Source: a virus | Taxonomy: Duplodnaviria > Caudoviricetes | Reading direction: 5' to 3' (one strand) | Length of the DNA stretch: 64,000 bases | Virus record (IMG/VR): IMGVR_UViG_3300021431_000012 | Location: 11,699-75,698 of that record | Shown: in pieces, positions 1 through 61,731 of the stretch | Numbering within the stretch: the first letter of the stretch is position 1 | Layout of the letters: the number at the start of each line of letters is the position of its first letter | Made by a program: the position numbers and the translations under genes | Notes under the pieces: model-generated | Databases searched by the model: none | The model's input: the letters and a program-made list of their open reading frames with translations, nothing else | Told to the model about the DNA's origin: nothing

Positions 1-228
1 GCATCCAGAGTGCGCACCGACCTTCCGCAAGTAAGACACCTGCTTTTGCCCATACACAAAGATTCTAACATAAGTCACTGGCTTTTGCCCTTCGGTTTCG
101 CTTTGCGTTTCCCTAAAATAAGATTGAATGCACAACGTGAATGTGGCATAGTTCTGCCCATTGCTTGCCGTGCCGTACTTGAAGTCACTACCGATAGTTC
201 CTTCAAGGTGAACAAAGTTTTTATCCAT
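1..228 (-). CDS. ssb: Single-stranded DNA-binding protein (OB fold), 3' end outside window
   Basis: Manual translation MDKNFVHLEGTIGSDFKYGTASNGQNYATFTLCIQSYFRETQSETEGQKPVTYVRIFVYGQKQVSYLRKVGAHSGC matches the SSB N-terminal pattern. Absent from the ORF track because it is truncated. Confidence 0.8.
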   Translation of the reverse strand, partial: MDKNFVHLEGTIGSDFKYGTASNGQNYATFTLCIQSYFRETQSETEGQKPVTYVRIFVYGQKQVSYLRKVGAHSGC

Positions 229-252
229 TGTTGTCTTGAAATAAAGTTGTTG

Positions 253-502
253 TGGAGCGAGGGGGAATCGAACCCGTTGTAAGAATCACTATAAAAAACA
301 AATTATATGCTACACTCTATCATATACAATATGAGTAAACTAATATAATATTATAACCACTAAAATAAAAAATTATGTTTAACTAAAAAATCTGAAATTT
401 GAGATGTATTTGAATAAATTCGGATATACAACAAGCCATTTCGCAACGGCCACACATTCTCACTTGAATGTGGCGTGTTCCATAACACGCAAACCTCGCC
501 CC
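253..502 (-). ncRNA. tRNA-like / tmRNA-like RNA with an Ala-type acceptor stem
   Basis: 5' GGGGCGA (502-496) pairs with 3' TCGCTCC (260-254), including G3-U70, with discriminator A (253). T-loop GGG-TTCGATT-CCC, three internal hairpins, and a GTTGTA/TACAAC helix enclosing an AT-rich insert. Confidence 0.5.
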
Positions 503-506
503 GTGT

Positions 507-539
507 AAAAGGAAAGCTATTTTCACAAACCGCCTCCCC
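507..539 (-). terminator. Terminator-like hairpin (GTGA tetraloop) plus U tract in the leader of the tRNA-like RNA
   Basis: Minus strand GGGGAGGCGGTTT-GTGA-AAATAGCTTTCC-TTTT, about 12 bp with G-U pairs and one mismatch. Confidence 0.4.
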
Positions 540-583
540 GCGTATTATTCTAACTTAAAACAATAAAAAGTTTTAATCAACCA

Positions 584-617
584 CAAAGATACGAAAAATC
601 GTGATTAGATTTGCAAT
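584..617 (-). promoter_or_regulatory. Bacteroidetes sigma-A promoter
   Basis: -7 box TATCTTTG at 591-584, with TTGC about 21 nt upstream. Confidence 0.6.
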
Positions 618-639
618 AAAACAAATATTTAACACGAAA

Positions 640-1011
640 TTAACATTCTAGTGATGATAAATCTTGCGCTACACATTCTTGTTGCTTGATATATGAGTTT
701 AGCGATTTTTCAAGTGTGTCTAATCTAGTCTGAAAAAGACGATGCCGCGAGACAAGTGACCGTATATGTTTTACACGTTCCTCGTCAATAGGTTCGCTAA
801 CTAGTTTATACCCCTCATTTAGCCAATAGTCTACGTTGTATTTTGCTACGCGGCCTTGCCACACCTTAAATGCAGCTATGGCTTTGTCGCGGTTTTCAAG
901 CTCGTTTTTTAGGTAGTCAATTTCGGATTTAAGTTGTCCATTTTCTATTAACACCTGCTTTAAAACCGCCTCAACAGGAACGTCTTTATTCGATAGTTTC
1001 ATATTCTTCAT
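640..1011 (-). CDS. Hypothetical coiled-coil protein
   Basis: ORF track; start moved to MKNMKLSNK. Confidence 0.65.
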   Translation of the reverse strand: MKNMKLSNKDVPVEAVLKQVLIENGQLKSEIDYLKNELENRDKAIAAFKVWQGRVAKYNVDYWLNEGYKLVSEPIDEERVKHIRSLVSRHRLFQTRLDTLEKSLNSYIKQQECVAQDLSSLEC

Positions 1012-1088
1012 AACACAAAAATTTTTGTGAGGTCGAACCACATATAGCATGATGCAACGCCATTTGCGATTCGACCTTTGTTGTCCTA

Positions 1089-1370
1089 CTAGTTTATATC
1101 CTCGTCGCTAACATCGCCGCCACCTTCTCGTTCAGTAATAAGATTAACCGCGTGCATAATGCCCATCGCGAATGCCACAAGCACGGCTCGTTTGGTTTTC
1201 TTGTCAATGCTCATGAAATCAAGCCACTGGTTGAGATACGTTACGACACCCGTGACGAGAACCGTTTGGTGTTCCGCTTCATCTTTCGGTGACGAAAGTT
1301 CCATTGATTTTGCAATGGCAAGAACTAGGTCTTTTACCATCTGCAAGTGTTTTTTCTCTTCGTTGTTCAT
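1089..1370 (-). CDS. Hypothetical protein, paralog of 1392-1664
   Basis: ORF track; shares the pattern L.LAIA..M....P....E...L..GV..YL..W..F. Confidence 0.75.
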   Translation of the reverse strand: MNNEEKKHLQMVKDLVLAIAKSMELSSPKDEAEHQTVLVTGVVTYLNQWLDFMSIDKKTKRAVLVAFAMGIMHAVNLITEREGGGDVSDEDIN

Positions 1371-1391
1371 GATTGTTTGTTTGTTTAATTG

Positions 1392-1664
1392 TTATTTGTC
1401 ATCAAAATCATAAAATTCCGACAAGTTATTAGAACACTGCGCAATCGTGCGCCCTAGATACCACAATGACATTTCGATGTCATCTTTTTCGAACTTTTGG
1501 AATTTCATCCATTCGACAAGATAGCTTGTTACACCAGCGGTAAGGATAACTTCTAACTCCACTTGGTTTTCTGGCTTAATTTCAGCCATCGCCTCTGCAA
1601 TTGCGAGGGATAATCTTTGCACGTCTTTACACTTTTCCGAATCGTTTTTCTTAATTGTTTCCAT
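1392..1664 (-). CDS. Hypothetical protein, paralog of 1089-1370
   Basis: ORF track; same shared pattern. Confidence 0.75.
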   Translation of the reverse strand: METIKKNDSEKCKDVQRLSLAIAEAMAEIKPENQVELEVILTAGVTSYLVEWMKFQKFEKDDIEMSLWYLGRTIAQCSNNLSEFYDFDDK

Positions 1665-1708
1665 AATAATGTTGTTTTGTTTAAATTGGTGTTGTTGTAC
1701 TATTTTGT

Positions 1709-1843
1709 TTAATATTCCTCCTCCTCATACTCATCAAGCCCTAACTCTCTGCGCTGGTATCGGGCAAATAATTCACACCTCATGCAGTTGCATCCACAGT
1801 CGGGATTGCGCTCGCACATCTTGTCAAGTTCATACTCTGTCAT
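1709..1843 (-). CDS. Small Cys-rich protein (44 aa)
   Basis: Manual translation MTEYELDKMCERNPDCGCNCMRCELFARYQRRELGLDEYEEEEY; overlaps the stop of the upstream gene. Confidence 0.55.
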   Translation of the reverse strand: MTEYELDKMCERNPDCGCNCMRCELFARYQRRELGLDEYEEEEY

Positions 1844-2051
1844 ATCTTTTCTTTGCTATTTGTTTGTCAATCCACCTTTCGGCCTCGGCAAAGGTGTTGC
1901 ATTCATATACTATATCAAAATCTGACAAGTGATAACCTTCTTGGCCGCTATACCCGAAAAGATACCCGTCACTTTCGAAATCCCAATAAGAGAAAACATT
2001 GTAAAGTCCATCGCCTTCGTCCGCGACAAAATAATTTTTCTTATGTTTCAT
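1830..2051 (-). CDS. Hypothetical protein
   Basis: ORF track; co-oriented with the operon. Confidence 0.65.
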   Translation of the reverse strand: MKHKKNYFVADEGDGLYNVFSYWDFESDGYLFGYSGQEGYHLSDFDIVYECNTFAEAERWIDKQIAKKRYDRV

Positions 2052-2063
2052 TGTTCTAAAATT

Positions 2064-2282
2064 TTAGTAATCTTTATAAAGTTCGTTGGCTCTATCCACA
2101 ATCTTCTGGCGGCATTCTACGTCAAGGCTCATGTAAAAGAAAAGCCTGTCGCAATTCCCCTGCAGGTATTGCGTGTACTTGCCCCAAACATGCTTGCCTA
2201 GCCATTCGCCAAAAACTCGCATGCATTCTTCTTGATTCCACTTGTTGAACATGTAGAAACCAAAATTCGTTACTTCATTCAT
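2064..2282 (-). CDS. Hypothetical protein
   Basis: ORF track; A-rich start context. Confidence 0.65.
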   Translation of the reverse strand: MNEVTNFGFYMFNKWNQEECMRVFGEWLGKHVWGKYTQYLQGNCDRLFFYMSLDVECRQKIVDRANELYKDY

Positions 2283-2294
2283 AGTTTTTTGTTT

Positions 2295-2507
2295 TTAATC
2301 GGTTATGTCTTTGTTTGTAATATCTATTGCTCTGCCGTCGGTAATGTCTTTCAACTTATACCATTCTACCTCAGGTTGTTCTAGTCCCCAAAAGCCGATT
2401 AAAAACTTTCTATTGGCACAACTAGAATGCCCCGAATACATAGGTCTAAGAATGTGGTCATTGCCACGCTCTTTGATTTCGGCAACTATCGTTCTATACT
2501 CTTTCAT
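2295..2507 (-). CDS. Hypothetical protein
   Basis: ORF track; A-rich start context. Confidence 0.65.
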   Translation of the reverse strand: MKEYRTIVAEIKERGNDHILRPMYSGHSSCANRKFLIGFWGLEQPEVEWYKLKDITDGRAIDITNKDITD

Positions 2508-4063: not shown

Positions 4064-4228
4064 TTAATAAGTGTTGAGATATTCCATGTAGCTACACACG
4101 GCGAACTCGTCATGGTGTCGCGTGCCTTTCGGCATCTTGAAAACCTTAAAGTAGTTGCAGTTGCTACGCTCGTTTCGTTGAGCACACACCTGCAATGCTT
4201 CCTTTCTTGTCTTGAAATACTTTTTCAT
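4064..4228 (-). CDS. Hypothetical protein (54 aa)
   Basis: Manual translation MKKYFKTRKEALQVCAQRNERSNCNYFKVFKMPKGTRHHDEFAVCSYMEYLNTY. Confidence 0.6.
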   Translation of the reverse strand: MKKYFKTRKEALQVCAQRNERSNCNYFKVFKMPKGTRHHDEFAVCSYMEYLNTY

Positions 4229-4293
4229 AATGCTATTTTAAATCGGAAATCCCCATGCGCTTGGCGATGTCTAGAATCTCCGTTGTAAGTCTT

Positions 4294-5106
4294 TTAACTG
4301 CACACTTGCCCGTAACTAAATGAATTTTTCAAGCCACGAATGTAGCCAGCTAGTTTTATTTGTAGCTTTCTATCATCACCGCTAAACTCCCAACCGCTAA
4401 ATAGCGACGAGTCAACGTCGTTGTAATCACGCATAAGCTGAAGAATCTTTGCACGATTTTCTTTGTGCGTGTTAATACGCCACCACCCGCGCCATGTGGT
4501 CGGGTCATCATTCTTGCATACGTCGGGAAACACATTGCGAAGCACTTTGATAAAAGCCTGCGTGTCGCGGCTATTCTTCTTGCGCTCGTTTTGTGTTTTT
4601 GCACGCCGTGCTATGATGTCCATTTTCTCTGCTTCGCTTTTTGCTTTCATTGCGGCAACATATTTCTCGTTGCTTGCCCCCAGCTTTTCACCTTTTGCCT
4701 TCAATGCCGATAGTGCTGCGGTCGTGCGTTGTGAACAAAGTTCGCGCTCGTACTGTGCAACACTAGCGAACACACCCAGCAAAAGAGTGTTTATCGTCGG
4801 CATGTCGCAAAAATGAATTTCGATTCCCGTGTTCACCACCTTAAAGCAAAACTCAACATCACGGGCGAGGCGGTCTAGCTTTGCAATAACAAGCGCACAC
4901 GCATTGCTCCTGCAATATTCTATCGCCGCAGCTAACCCTTTTCTATCGCGGTGCGTACCACTTTCCACGTCGCTAAATTCGGCGGCACACACGCCGCCAG
5001 AACGCTTGATAAAGTCCTCGCACATGGCTCTTTGTGCCGCCATACCTAAACCACCAGCGCCCTGCTTGCGTGTAGACACGCGAAGGTATATTGCAAATTT
5101 TTTCAT
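4294..5106 (-). CDS. Serine recombinase, resolvase/invertase family
   Basis: YLRVSTRKQ catalytic Ser motif, DVESG, LVIAKLDRLARD, ASVAQYERELCSQRT..AL...KAKG..LG. Confidence 0.9.
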   Translation of the reverse strand: MKKFAIYLRVSTRKQGAGGLGMAAQRAMCEDFIKRSGGVCAAEFSDVESGTHRDRKGLAAAIEYCRSNACALVIAKLDRLARDVEFCFKVVNTGIEIHFCDMPTINTLLLGVFASVAQYERELCSQRTTAALSALKAKGEKLGASNEKYVAAMKAKSEAEKMDIIARRAKTQNERKKNSRDTQAFIKVLRNVFPDVCKNDDPTTWRGWWRINTHKENRAKILQLMRDYNDVDSSLFSGWEFSGDDRKLQIKLAGYIRGLKNSFSYGQVCS

Positions 5107-5339
5107 AATTCTCCTCCGTAAAAACTTCCGTACAATATCACTTTTGTATCTTTGTGACGAAGCCTGCCGCATTTGTTTATGCGTATATTACTCACTCCAC
5201 AAAGGCTATAGACATCTGCCGCAGCTTCACGAGCATTTTCCAAATTGTCGCACTTGATTGCATAGTGTTTAGTTTGATAGCCCATTAACCTAAAATAGTT
5301 GTTAGGTCTTATCTGAAATGTTACATATATTTTTTTCAT
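5103..5339 (-). CDS. Hypothetical protein
   Basis: ORF track; 4-nt overlap with the resolvase start. Confidence 0.6.
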   Translation of the reverse strand: MKKIYVTFQIRPNNYFRLMGYQTKHYAIKCDNLENAREAAADVYSLCGVSNIRINKCGRLRHKDTKVILYGSFYGGEL

Positions 5340-61628: not shown

Positions 61629-61660
61629 AATTATAAAGTTTTTAGGTGAAAAATAAATTG

Positions 61661-61731
61661 TCAGGGTGTCAAGATTTGAACTTGAACTAATAGAACCAAA
61701 ATCTATTGTGCTACCATTACACCACACCCCG
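61661..61731 (-). tRNA. tRNA-Gln (anticodon TTG)
   Basis: Cloverleaf: acceptor CGGGGTG/CACCCTG, D arm GTGT-AATGGT-AGCAC, anticodon stem ATAGA/TCTAT with loop TT-TTG-GT, T loop TTCAAAT; CCA not encoded. Confidence 0.9.

What the first reader, a model, noticed from the sequence alone, without database searches (positions are those of the whole stretch)
253..502. 250-nt tRNA-mimic RNA with Ala identity (G3-U70, A73) and a tmRNA-like layout but no canonical tag
Seen: the 3' end GGGTTCGATTCCCCCTCGCTCCA is a T-arm plus acceptor strand. 250 nt upstream, GGGGCGA pairs with it at all 7 positions, including G3-U70. Between them are three stacked hairpins (GCGTGTT-ATGG-AACACGC; CACATTC-AAGTGA-GAATGTG; GGCCGTT-GCGA-AATGGCT) and a GTTGTA/TACAAC helix closing an AT-rich insert just before the T-arm, where tmRNA has helix P2. 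It has its own promoter (584-617). Known: G3-U70/A73 is the AlaRS identity element of tRNA-Ala and tmRNA, and some phages carry tmRNA. Against a normal tmRNA: the T-stem has only 3 bp, the GGxTTCGAC D-loop motif is absent, and none of the three insert frames ends in an (A/L)AA-type tag. Inference: a novel alanylatable tRNA mimic, such as an SmpB/AlaRS decoy, a decoy for anticodon nucleases, a divergent tmRNA, or an RNase P/Z processing element in front of ssb.
Basis: partly seen in the sequence, partly recalled or inferred. Interest (0 to 1): 0.8.

Follow-up and report, generated by a model that had tools for sequence, protein, structure and literature searches.

The report
Expressed phage tRNA look-alike, not tmRNA
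A cattle-gut phage makes a stable RNA of about 250 bases that folds like an unusual "9/3" alanine-type tRNA but has no normal anticodon loop and carries a large, fast-evolving extra arm; it is a real, selected gene for a little-known kind of phage tRNA mimic, it is not a tmRNA, and its job is still unknown.

Summary
On the minus strand of window 253-502 lies a 250-nt RNA with these parts:
- a 9-bp acceptor stem (G3-U70, A73) stacked on a 3-bp T stem with a canonical T loop
- three 7-bp hairpins
- a 6-bp helix closing a 145-nt AT-rich region

Ten natural variants from other samples support the fold. Six base pairs in four helices change on both sides and stay paired. The core diverges about 1% while flanking genes diverge 7-11%. 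The AT-rich region drifts at about 12%, with indels that rule out a tag ORF.

Two metatranscriptomes from different studies each hold one 219-nt contig covering only RNA positions 9-227 and none of the flanking 2.5 kb. So this is a discrete, abundant RNA that keeps the insert.

It is not a tmRNA: it has the wrong topology and no tag, and ARAGORN and Rfam do not call it. It is not an attP either. The closest known kind is the 9/3 allo-tRNA (Mukai 2017), some of which carry G3:U70, but this RNA has a 6-nt "anticodon" loop and a sixth arm.

It sits behind a Bacteroidota-type promoter and a conserved leader hairpin that also precedes ordinary phage tRNA genes. The slot upstream of ssb holds other odd tRNA look-alikes in related phages. 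Earlier work in this scan found phage tRNA look-alikes on other DNA. Function: probably a non-decoding tRNA mimic that can be charged (inferred).

The parts
584..616 (-). Putative Bacteroidota-type promoter: -7 box at 584-591 and a -33-like TTG at 613-616, about 21 nt apart
   Evidence: Read from the sequence. The same kind of -33/-7 promoter sits directly upstream of ssb in relatives that lack the element. No transcription start was mapped.
511..538 (-). Leader hairpin with a 7-bp outer stem, a small internal loop and a 3-bp inner stem capped by a GUGA tetraloop. It ends 8 nt before G1 of the RNA
   Evidence: Invariant in all variants. The same apical motif with different, complementary outer stems precedes tRNA-like elements in L071, L088, L063 and L117, and canonical tRNA genes in IMG/VR phages. 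It is not part of the accumulated RNA.
253..502 (-). The tRNA-shaped RNA, 250 nt (G1 = 502, discriminator A = 253)
   Evidence: Fold, covariation, RNA contigs covering 276-494 in two metatranscriptomes.
494..502 (-). Acceptor stem, 5' strand (RNA 1-9), with G3 of the G3-U70 pair
   Evidence: 9 of 9 positions pair with 254-262. Invariant in all variants except one C5>U, which keeps a U-G pair.
473..490 (-). Hairpin 1, D-arm analogue: 7-bp stem and AUGG tetraloop (RNA 13-30)
   Evidence: One pair changed on both sides and one G-C>G-U change in L163. The loop is invariant.
453..472 (-). Hairpin 2, in the anticodon-arm position: 7-bp stem and 6-nt loop AAGUGA (RNA 31-50)
   Evidence: Two pairs changed on both sides. 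The U-A > U-G > C-G series at pair 36-45 is seen in separate lineages. The loop reads AAGCGA in L163, and there the closing pair is lost.
434..451 (-). Hairpin 3, variable-arm analogue: 7-bp stem and GCGA tetraloop (RNA 52-69)
   Evidence: One pair changed on both sides and two G-U>A-U changes.
427..432 (-). 5' strand of the 6-bp helix that closes the extra arm (RNA 71-76)
   Evidence: Pairs with 276-281. Two of the six pairs change on both sides in L163.
282..426 (-). AT-rich interior of the extra arm (RNA 77-221), hypervariable
   Evidence: 18-21 substitutions plus 5 indels against 1-2 substitutions in the 105-nt core in the same lineages. It is largely unalignable in L163. It is retained in the RNA contigs.
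276..281 (-). 3' strand of the closing helix (RNA 222-227)
263..275 (-). T arm: 3-bp stem and 7-nt UUCGAUU loop (RNA 228-240)
   Evidence: Matches tmRNA/tRNA T-loop consensus positions. Only loop position 59 varies, in L163.
253..262 (-). Acceptor stem, 3' strand (RNA 241-249, with U70 equivalent) and discriminator A (253). No encoded CCA
1..228 (-). Start of ssb (ATG at 226-228), 24 nt after the discriminator. Head of the ssb-exonuclease-recT block
   Evidence: Pfam SSB E 1.4e-08; gene order.

Best explanation
This is a phage gene for a stable, non-decoding, tRNA-shaped RNA of the 9/3 allo-tRNA type.

Proposed pathway:
1. It is transcribed from the early promoter that also serves ssb-exo-recT.
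2. It is cut out of the transcript like a tRNA: RNase P at G1, just after the conserved leader hairpin, then 3' trimming after the discriminator and CCA addition by host enzymes.
3. It accumulates as a ~250-nt RNA that keeps its extra arm.

Its acceptor/T minihelix (12 layers, canonical T loop, G3-U70, A73) is conserved at the sequence level, so the RNA is probably alanylated by the host AlaRS. Hairpin 2 has a 6-nt loop (8 nt if its closing pair opens) in place of a 7-nt anticodon loop, so the RNA cannot read codons normally. The AT-rich arm is tolerated ballast at the variable-region position.

I therefore read it as a trans-acting tRNA mimic that engages host tRNA-binding factors, whether enzymes, sensors or tRNA-directed defence proteins.

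Shown: the fold, the selection, the expression, and the context it shares with real phage tRNA genes.
Inferred: the processing enzymes, CCA addition, alanylation and the mimic or decoy role.
For: Structure and selection:
- 6 compensatory pairs in 4 helices, 99% of cells paired, none of 500 shuffles as high.
- Core 1 of 105 nt changed against 18 of 145 in the insert in the same lineages (Fisher p 4e-4). Flanking genes differ by 7-11% (binomial p 6e-4).
- In the divergent L163, the acceptor plus T arm changed at 1 of 32 positions against 19 of 73 in the rest of the core (p 0.006). The minihelix is therefore constrained in sequence, not only in shape.

Expression:
- Two metatranscriptomes from two studies each hold a single 219-nt, 100%-identical contig at 276-494 and nothing else of 2.5 kb. 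DNA runs cover the whole stretch.

Context:
- The conserved GNRA-capped leader hairpin lies 4-36 nt before canonical tRNA genes (Ala, Thr, Met) in other phages.
- The same slot upstream of ssb holds other tRNA look-alikes in relatives. These have 9/3, 8/4 and 8/3 splits, and one has an encoded CCA.

Blueprint:
- 9/3 branch, long D stem with tetraloop, long anticodon stem and long V arm match allo-tRNAs.
- Allo-tRNAs occur in phages and rumen bacteria. Some carry G3:U70 and were shown to insert Ala in E. coli. Some are five-stem and translationally inactive (PMC5389517; PMC7609411).
Against: - No end mapping. The contigs stop 8 nt inside the 5' end and at the T-arm boundary, so the exact termini, CCA addition and charging are unproven.
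- The acceptor and T stems show no covariation within this type.
- The closest sister cassette (L152, 99% identical SSB) has a different 9/3 acceptor strand that implies G3-C70. Other slot occupants also lack G3-U70. Alanine identity is therefore not a property of the slot and may be inherited rather than functional.
- All compensatory changes come from one lineage.
- No partner protein is encoded by the phage (no SmpB, Ro60/TROVE, RtcB or CCA enzyme).
- A purely cis role (transcript punctuation) would also select for the tRNA shape.
Confidence: 0.6

Rival explanations
1. Cis-acting punctuation. The tRNA shape exists only so that RNase P and the 3' tRNA endonuclease cut the early transcript. 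This releases an ssb-exo-recT mRNA with a short unstructured 24-nt leader and leaves the upstream RNA capped by the leader hairpin. The excised RNA is a by-product.
For: The element lies inside the transcription unit with no terminator, 24 nt before the ssb ATG. Relatives without it have the promoter directly at ssb. The conserved hairpin just upstream of the cut site would protect an upstream 3' end. The occupant of the slot is interchangeable.
Against: A by-product need not accumulate far above its flanking mRNA, yet only the element is seen in two RNA libraries. Punctuation needs only the acceptor/T minihelix, yet three further hairpins, their loops and the acceptor sequence itself are conserved.
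Confidence: 0.15
2. Scaffold for the arm. The tRNA-like core is a processing and stability scaffold, and the AT-rich arm is the working part, either a base-pairing small RNA or, at DNA level, an internal promoter or AT-rich element for ssb.
For: The arm is kept in the accumulated RNA. Its closing helix covaries. A U-run followed by a GUUA-type motif is shared with the L071 element. A near-match to the -7 promoter box lies about 45 nt before the T arm (sequence reading only).
Against: The arm evolves at or above the background rate with frequent indels. Predicted inner pairs break without compensation. It is largely unalignable in L163. That is the signature of little sequence constraint.
Confidence: 0.1
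3. A working but unorthodox decoder. Hairpin 2 opens its closing pair to give an 8-nt loop, or the RNA is further processed, and it then inserts alanine at particular codons, as recoding allo-tRNAs do.
For: Allo-tRNAs with G3:U70 insert Ala in E. coli, and 9/3 forms are translationally competent (PMC5389517). The closing pair of hairpin 2 is lost in L163.
Against: There is no 7-nt loop and no U33-type context. The central loop base differs between lineages (U versus C), which keeps a GNRA-like GYGA and would change any 'anticodon'. No joint or spliced form appears in the RNA or DNA contigs. ARAGORN finds no tRNA even after the extra arm is removed in silico.
Confidence: 0.05
4. A divergent phage tmRNA that rescues stalled ribosomes, or an SmpB decoy.
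For: G3-U70/A73 and a T arm identical to many tmRNA T arms. The 3' 22-mer recurs in ~85-nt tmRNA-TLD-like genes of Patescibacteria.
Against: Wrong topology: three hairpins lie outside the closing helix. There are no pseudoknots and no resume codon or tag. Frame-breaking indels occur between near-identical variants. RF00023 gives 10.9 bits against a threshold of 47. ARAGORN tmRNA mode finds nothing. It has a structured D arm where tmRNA has an open D loop. The phage has no SmpB. Sister elements lack G3-U70.
Confidence: 0.03
5. attP or remnant. The 3' 23 nt are a copy of a host tRNA/ssrA end used for integration, and the rest is chance.
For: Phage attP sites often copy tRNA 3' ends. A small serine recombinase lies 4 kb away.
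Against: There is no tyrosine integrase. The 22-mer occurs in only 10 loci (9 contigs) among 185,579 species genomes, none a plausible rumen host tRNA. The whole 250 nt is selected and expressed.
Confidence: 0.01

Closest known systems
Allo-tRNAs with a 9/3 acceptor/T split, including G3:U70 forms (Mukai et al. 2017, NAR; PMC5389517; review PMC7609411)
   Same: 12-bp acceptor branch split 9/3. tRNASec-like D arm with a long stem and tetraloop. Lengthened anticodon-position stem. Long variable arm. G3:U70. Occurrence in phages and bovine rumen samples. Some published members have five-stem junctions, do not work in translation, and were suggested to be regulatory RNAs.
   Different: A 6-nt loop where the 7-nt anticodon loop should be. 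A sixth arm of 157 nt (6-bp helix plus 145 nt of AT-rich, hypervariable sequence) between the variable arm and the T stem. 250 nt long rather than about 90. Sits in the leader of a phage ssb operon. No sequence-level homology to published allo-tRNAs was tested, because no sequences were at hand.
tmRNA (Rfam RF00023; ARAGORN tmRNA model)
   Same: Alanine acceptor identity (first five pairs and A73 as in tmRNA and tRNA-Ala). Canonical T loop. A large non-tRNA insert between the acceptor strand and the T arm.
   Different: Three hairpins sit outside the helix that closes the insert. No pseudoknots, resume codon, tag or tandem stops that are conserved. 9/3 rather than 7/5. A structured D arm. Not detected by either model.
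Phage T4 RNAC and RNAD, small stable RNAs from the tRNA region with unknown role (PMC3014915). That they are tRNA-like is from my own knowledge
   Same: Phage-encoded stable small RNAs made in a tRNA-gene context, longer than a tRNA, non-decoding, function unknown.
   Different: No sequence relation was tested. Different host phylum. This RNA has an explicit 9/3 allo-tRNA layout and an Ala identity set.
YrlA / bacterial Y RNAs (tRNA-mimicking partners of Ro60/Rsr). Lead from earlier scan notes and my own knowledge
   Same: A non-coding RNA that contains a tRNA-like module.
   Different: In YrlA the RNA termini form the Ro-binding helix and the tRNA-like part is internal. Here the termini are the acceptor stem. 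The phage has no TROVE/Ro60 gene. No Rfam hit.

Membership tests
tmRNA | Acceptor stem with G3-U70 and discriminator A (alanylation) | tested here: met
   Sequence reading. Invariant in 10 variants.
tmRNA | T arm with a 5-bp stem on a 7-bp acceptor, and an open D-loop analogue without a stem | tested here: not met
   9/3 split. A 7-bp D-type hairpin supported by covariation.
tmRNA | Helix P2 enclosing the whole mRNA-like and pseudoknot domain | tested here: not met
   Three covariation-supported hairpins lie between the acceptor strand and the closing helix.
tmRNA | Tag reading frame with a resume codon and stop codon(s), conserved among relatives | tested here: not met
   No Ala-rich or conserved frame. 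Indels of 1, 2 and 4 nt between close variants. Insert unalignable in L163.
tmRNA | Recognised by RF00023 or ARAGORN tmRNA mode | tested here: not met
   10.9 bits against a threshold of 47, T loop only. ARAGORN finds nothing.
tmRNA | SmpB binding | not testable with these tools
   The phage encodes no SmpB. Host SmpB binding was not tested.
allo-tRNA (8/4 or 9/3) | 12-bp acceptor branch split 8/4 or 9/3 | tested here: met
   9 + 3 contiguous pairs. 7/5 is impossible. The L152 sister cassette is also 9/3. No covariation is available for these two stems.
allo-tRNA (8/4 or 9/3) | tRNASec-like D arm: long stem with tetraloop | tested here: met
   7 bp plus AUGG. One compensatory pair. Feature as described in PMC5389517.
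allo-tRNA (8/4 or 9/3) | Long variable arm | tested here: met
   7 bp plus GCGA. One compensatory pair.
allo-tRNA (8/4 or 9/3) | Lengthened anticodon stem carrying a 7-nt anticodon loop | tested here: not met
   The stem is present (7 bp, two compensatory pairs), but the loop is 6 nt, or 8 nt if the closing pair opens. The central loop base varies.
allo-tRNA (8/4 or 9/3) | tRNA-sized cloverleaf (four or five stems) | tested here: not met
   Six helices meet at the junction. There is an extra 157-nt arm.
allo-tRNA (8/4 or 9/3) | Aminoacylation (Ser, or Ala when G3:U70 is present) | not testable with these tools
   G3:U70 and A73 are present. Charging is inferred only.
canonical tRNA | Recognised by RF00005 or ARAGORN | tested here: not met
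   No hit at E<=10. ARAGORN finds nothing at default settings, even with the arm removed in silico. A forced low-threshold 7/5 fold contradicts the covariation.
Y RNA / YrlA | Ro60-binding terminal helix, and a Ro60 (TROVE) partner nearby | tested here: not met
   The termini form the acceptor stem. No TROVE gene in the phage. No Rfam hit.
phage attP at a tRNA/ssrA gene | Identity to the 3' end of a host tRNA/tmRNA gene, plus an integrase | tested here: not met
   The 22-mer is found in only 10 loci from 9 contigs, mostly Patescibacteria and none a called tRNA. No tyrosine integrase.

The most novel reading that the evidence does not exclude
The RNA is a dedicated off-ribosome tRNA mimic. It is matured and alanylated like tRNA-Ala but barred from decoding. 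The phage makes it at the very start of infection to occupy or mislead a host factor that reads the acceptor/T 'top half' of tRNAs, for example a tRNA-directed defence toxin or sensor. The interchangeable look-alikes in the same ssb-upstream slot of related phages would then be alternative decoys matched to different host factors.
Probability: 0.15. Interest if true: 0.8.

Novelty: new variant of a known kind. Interest (0 to 1): 0.6.

Why it matters
Phage tRNA genes are usually explained by codon supply or by replacing tRNAs that defences cut. This RNA cannot decode, yet it is expressed far above its neighbours and kept under clear purifying selection, including on the sequence of its alanine-type acceptor end.

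It extends the allo-tRNA idea (9/3 tRNAs, some non-translating) to an expressed phage RNA with a sixth arm. It also belongs to a set of interchangeable tRNA look-alikes at one locus of rumen phages.

If the mimic or decoy role holds, it gives a tractable model for what non-decoding phage tRNA-like RNAs do, a question still open for T4 RNAC and RNAD. The conserved leader hairpin shared with ordinary phage tRNA genes is a second lead, not found in Rfam here, for how phages process or mark their tRNA transcripts.

Tried and rejected
Detectors and homology searches:
- ARAGORN and Rfam at gathering and at E<=10 gave no tRNA or tmRNA call for the element.
- ARAGORN on the RNA with the extra arm removed in silico found nothing at default settings. 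At low threshold it forces a 7/5 'Met' fold that contradicts the covariation.
- megablast and blastn against GenBank phages found no homologue.
- Exact or degenerate pattern scans of IMG/VR found nothing for the 3' 23-mer, a leader-H1-T-loop pattern or an H1-hairpin 2 pattern.
- An SSB-based and an exonuclease-based locus search in IMG/VR found no relatives.
- blastn of the element against 4 + 80 RecT-related loci gave no hit. Homologues came only through contigs that encode the same or nearly the same SSB.
- A covariance model of leader plus three hairpins (R1), searched over 97 loci, found only further copies of the leader hairpin and no new own-type core.

Analyses that did not help:
- A MAFFT alignment of the shorter slot occupants (A2) was too poor to test a common body structure. 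Homology between the 250-nt type and the 118-143-nt types therefore rests on the shared slot, leader hairpin, H1 shape and 9/3-8/4 split, and is not proven.
- A permissive scan (one mismatch and G-U allowed, up to 420 nt) produced many chance 'acceptor' pairings inside genes. Such pairing alone is weak evidence. The strict criteria, covariation and RNA data carry the case.

Ideas tested and dropped:
- Tag-peptide idea: three frames of 15-23 codons, none Ala-rich, all broken by indels in variants.
- Intron idea: no joint in any RNA or DNA contig, no RtcB in the phage, and too small and AT-rich for a group I intron. No Rfam intron hit on the element itself. One search scanned only the seven relative loci and found no intron there either.
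- Partner genes in the phage (SmpB, TROVE, RtcB, CCA enzyme, tyrosine integrase): none found.

Limits of the data:
- Parts of the stretch without RNA cover, and the exact contig ends at 276 and 494, come from assembled contigs at depth 3-5. They cannot fix the RNA termini.

Full report
WHAT IS THERE

The window is part of a complete 75.7-kb IMG/VR virus with direct terminal repeats. DNA runs that hold it are cattle-gut and rumen-type metagenomes. Genes around the finding run on the minus strand in this order: a 136-aa ORF, the element, ssb (Pfam SSB), two small ORFs, a YqaJ-like exonuclease and recT.

RNA position n corresponds to window position 503-n.
- The acceptor pairing is 9 bp, not 7: RNA 1-9 with 241-249, including G3-U70. 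The discriminator is A and there is no encoded CCA.
- It abuts a 3-bp T stem with a UUCGAUU loop. The two bases 5' of the T stem cannot pair, so the 12-layer acceptor branch is split 9/3, not 7/5.
- Then come hairpin 1 (7 bp, AUGG loop), hairpin 2 (7 bp, AAGUGA loop) and hairpin 3 (7 bp, GCGA loop).
- A 6-bp helix closes 145 nt of roughly 80% A+T.
- The MFE fold returns exactly this (z -3.3). The three-hairpin block is a well-defined fold (z -3.6, 65% of the ensemble).

IS IT REAL

Contigs from other samples that encode the same or nearly the same SSB gave ten further copies. They fall into three close haplotype groups plus one divergent form, L163.

On an alignment of eight distinct sequences:
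- 99% of cells are paired.
- Six pairs change on both sides and stay paired: one in hairpin 1, two in hairpin 2, one in hairpin 3, two in the closing helix. None of 500 shuffles reached this, and slid controls gave 0-1.
- At pair 36-45 the path U-A, U-G, C-G is seen in separate lineages.
- All six double changes come from L163, so they are six events on one branch.
- The acceptor and T stems do not vary.

Rates:
- In lineages whose flanking genes differ by 7-11%, the 105-nt core has 1-2 changes, and three of the four seen keep pairing. The binomial p for at most 1 change in 105 nt at a 9% rate is 6e-4.
- In the same lineages the 145-nt arm interior has 18-21 substitutions and five indels (Fisher p 4e-4).
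- In L163 the acceptor plus T arm changed at 1 of 32 positions against 19 of 73 in the rest of the core (p 0.006). The minihelix is therefore held in sequence as well as in shape.

IS IT EXPRESSED

I laid four runs on window 1-2500.
- Two metatranscriptomes from different studies, one from the sample the phage was probably assembled from, each hold exactly one contig. It is 219 nt, 100% identical, at 276-494 (RNA 9-227), with nothing else of the 2.5 kb.
- Two DNA runs cover the whole stretch.
- The flanks serve as the silent control, so DNA carry-over does not explain this.
- The RNA is much more abundant than the neighbouring mRNAs. It keeps the AT-rich arm (no joint was seen), and its ends lie within 8 nt (5') and 23 nt (3') of the predicted tRNA-type ends.
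- Contigs at depth 3-5 cannot fix the termini.

CONTEXT

About 80 nt upstream is a Bacteroidota-type promoter: a -7 box at 584-591, read from the sequence only. Relatives that lack the element have the same kind of promoter directly at ssb.

Eight nt before G1 lies a hairpin (511-538) with a GUGA-capped apex.
- The same apex, with different but complementary outer stems, precedes the tRNA look-alikes of L071, L088, L063 and L117.
- Its exact 16-mer occurs in 26 IMG/VR loci. About 15 of these have flanking stems of at least 5 bp. In four of them a canonical tRNA gene (Ala, Thr/Met, Met, Cys) follows, at 4-36 nt in three and at 125 nt in the fourth. Model R1 found more copies.
- So the element sits where a phage tRNA gene would sit. 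The hairpin is invariant in the variants and is not in the accumulated RNA.

The slot upstream of ssb holds different things in RecT-related phages:
- nothing (L004, L006, L164)
- a 74-nt tRNA-like gene with a 10-nt anticodon loop (L007/L056, RF00005 37.5 bits)
- 118-143-nt look-alikes with 9/3, 8/4 or 8/3 branches, one with an encoded CCA (L117/L118/L166, L071, L063, L088)
- the 250-nt type described here

L152 has an SSB 99% identical to this one but carries a different 9/3 acceptor strand that implies G3-C70. The cassettes are therefore swapped, and alanine identity is specific to this type.

WHAT IT IS NOT

- tmRNA. The topology is wrong and there are no pseudoknots or conserved tag. Indels of 1, 2 and 4 nt occur between close variants. 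RF00023 matches only the T loop, at 10.9 bits against a threshold of 47. ARAGORN tmRNA mode finds nothing, and the phage has no SmpB.
- attP. There is no tyrosine integrase. The 3' 22-mer occurs in only ten loci from nine contigs among 185,579 species genomes, mostly Patescibacteria and none a called tRNA.
- A canonical tRNA.
- An intron-bearing tRNA. No joint was seen, and the phage has no ligase.
- A Y RNA.

WHAT IT RESEMBLES

Mukai et al. (PMC5389517; review PMC7609411) describe allo-tRNAs as follows:
- a 12-bp acceptor branch split 8/4 or 9/3
- a tRNASec-like D arm with a long stem and tetraloop
- a longer anticodon stem and a long variable arm
- found in bacteria and phages, including bovine rumen material
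- some with G3:U70 that insert Ala in E. coli
- some with five-stem junctions that do not work in translation, suggested to be regulatory RNAs

The core here fits that blueprint feature for feature except two: the 'anticodon' loop has 6 nt (8 if its closing pair opens, as in L163), and a sixth arm is inserted between the variable arm and the T stem. The central loop base differs between lineages (GUGA against GCGA). That suits a structural GNRA-like loop, not an anticodon.

HOW IT MOST LIKELY WORKS

Shown: fold, selection, accumulation, and the tRNA-gene context.

Inferred from established tRNA biology:
- RNase P, the CCA-adding enzyme and EF-Tu read the 12-bp acceptor/T branch and the elbow.
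- AlaRS reads G3-U70 with A73, even in minihelices.
- So the RNA is probably cut at G1, trimmed after the discriminator, given CCA and alanylated, but it cannot decode.

I commit to a trans-acting tRNA mimic (0.6 for the whole statement; the identity part alone I would put near 0.85). Rivals are cis punctuation of the ssb transcript (0.15), a scaffold whose arm is the active part (0.1), an unorthodox decoder (0.05), tmRNA (0.03) and attP or chance (0.01).

The arm's near-neutral evolution argues against the scaffold reading. The conservation of three extra hairpins, their loops and the acceptor sequence argues against pure punctuation.

NOVELTY

This is a new variant of a known kind (allo-tRNA-like or phage tRNA-like stable RNA). 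The sixth arm, the 6-nt loop, the expression evidence and the swap-slot upstream of ssb were not found described in the papers searched. T4 RNAC and RNAD remain the classic unexplained parallel (PMC3014915). Earlier notes of this scan report several phage tRNA look-alikes without anticodons on other DNA. I treated these as leads only.

Noticed in passing
window 511-538 (minus); also L071:~588-617, L088:~4206-4233, L117:~2022-2051 and ~2498-2525, L063:~4240-4267, L128, L143, L145, L148, L138, L140, L144, L146, L065:3727, L055:4716: A conserved hairpin with a GNRA-capped apex (UUU-GUGA-AAA with a GG/UA internal loop; variants CUU-GUGA-AAG and UUC-GCGA-GAA). Its outer stems covary. It lies a few nt upstream of phage tRNA and tRNA-like genes, and several copies can occur per phage. 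It gave no Rfam hit. It may be a processing, stability or protein-binding signal of phage tRNA transcripts.
   Followed up: partly
L117:2058-2175 (=L118, L166), L071:632-774, L063:4316-4438, L088:4242-4363, L007:5533-5606 (=L056), L104:1968-2097 (=L105, L106): Other odd tRNA look-alikes (74-143 nt) with 9/3, 8/4, 8/3 or 7/5 acceptor branches, sometimes no anticodon arm, and one with an encoded CCA. Most sit in the same slot upstream of ssb (or recT) in related rumen phages.
   Followed up: partly
L152:1-40: A contig whose SSB is 99% identical carries a different 9/3 tRNA-like 3' end (G3-C70 implied) at the same place. The contig is cut, so the 5' half is unknown. This points to cassette exchange at the tRNA-like/ssb boundary.
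   Followed up: partly
L079:4537-4770, L098:300-437, L110:2252-2423: tRNA genes with canonical acceptor, D and T arms but 60-160 nt inserted at the anticodon or variable region. L098 matches RF00005 end to end at 37.5 bits. L079 lies next to a normal tRNA.
   Followed up: no
L027-L035 (Patescibacteria and relatives), L036:5784-5856 (Prolixibacteraceae): Genes of ~85 nt with the same acceptor and T-arm sequence as the element and a tmRNA-like 5' end, some with encoded CCA. ARAGORN and Rfam do not call them. In several, the segment between the arms is complementary to a short upstream transcript that ends in a terminator, which suggests a two-piece arrangement.
   Followed up: no
L025:~855-925 (G001) and L026:~975-1040 minus (G002): Weak tRNA-like hits (22 and 16 bits) in two related phages. 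The first has a CAU anticodon arm but degenerate D and T arms.
   Followed up: no
window 61660-61731 (minus): The only canonical tRNA of the phage, tRNA-Gln(UUG), 64 bits.
   Followed up: no
window 4294-5172 (minus): A small serine recombinase (Resolvase domain, E 1.6e-23) in a phage with no tyrosine integrase.
   Followed up: no
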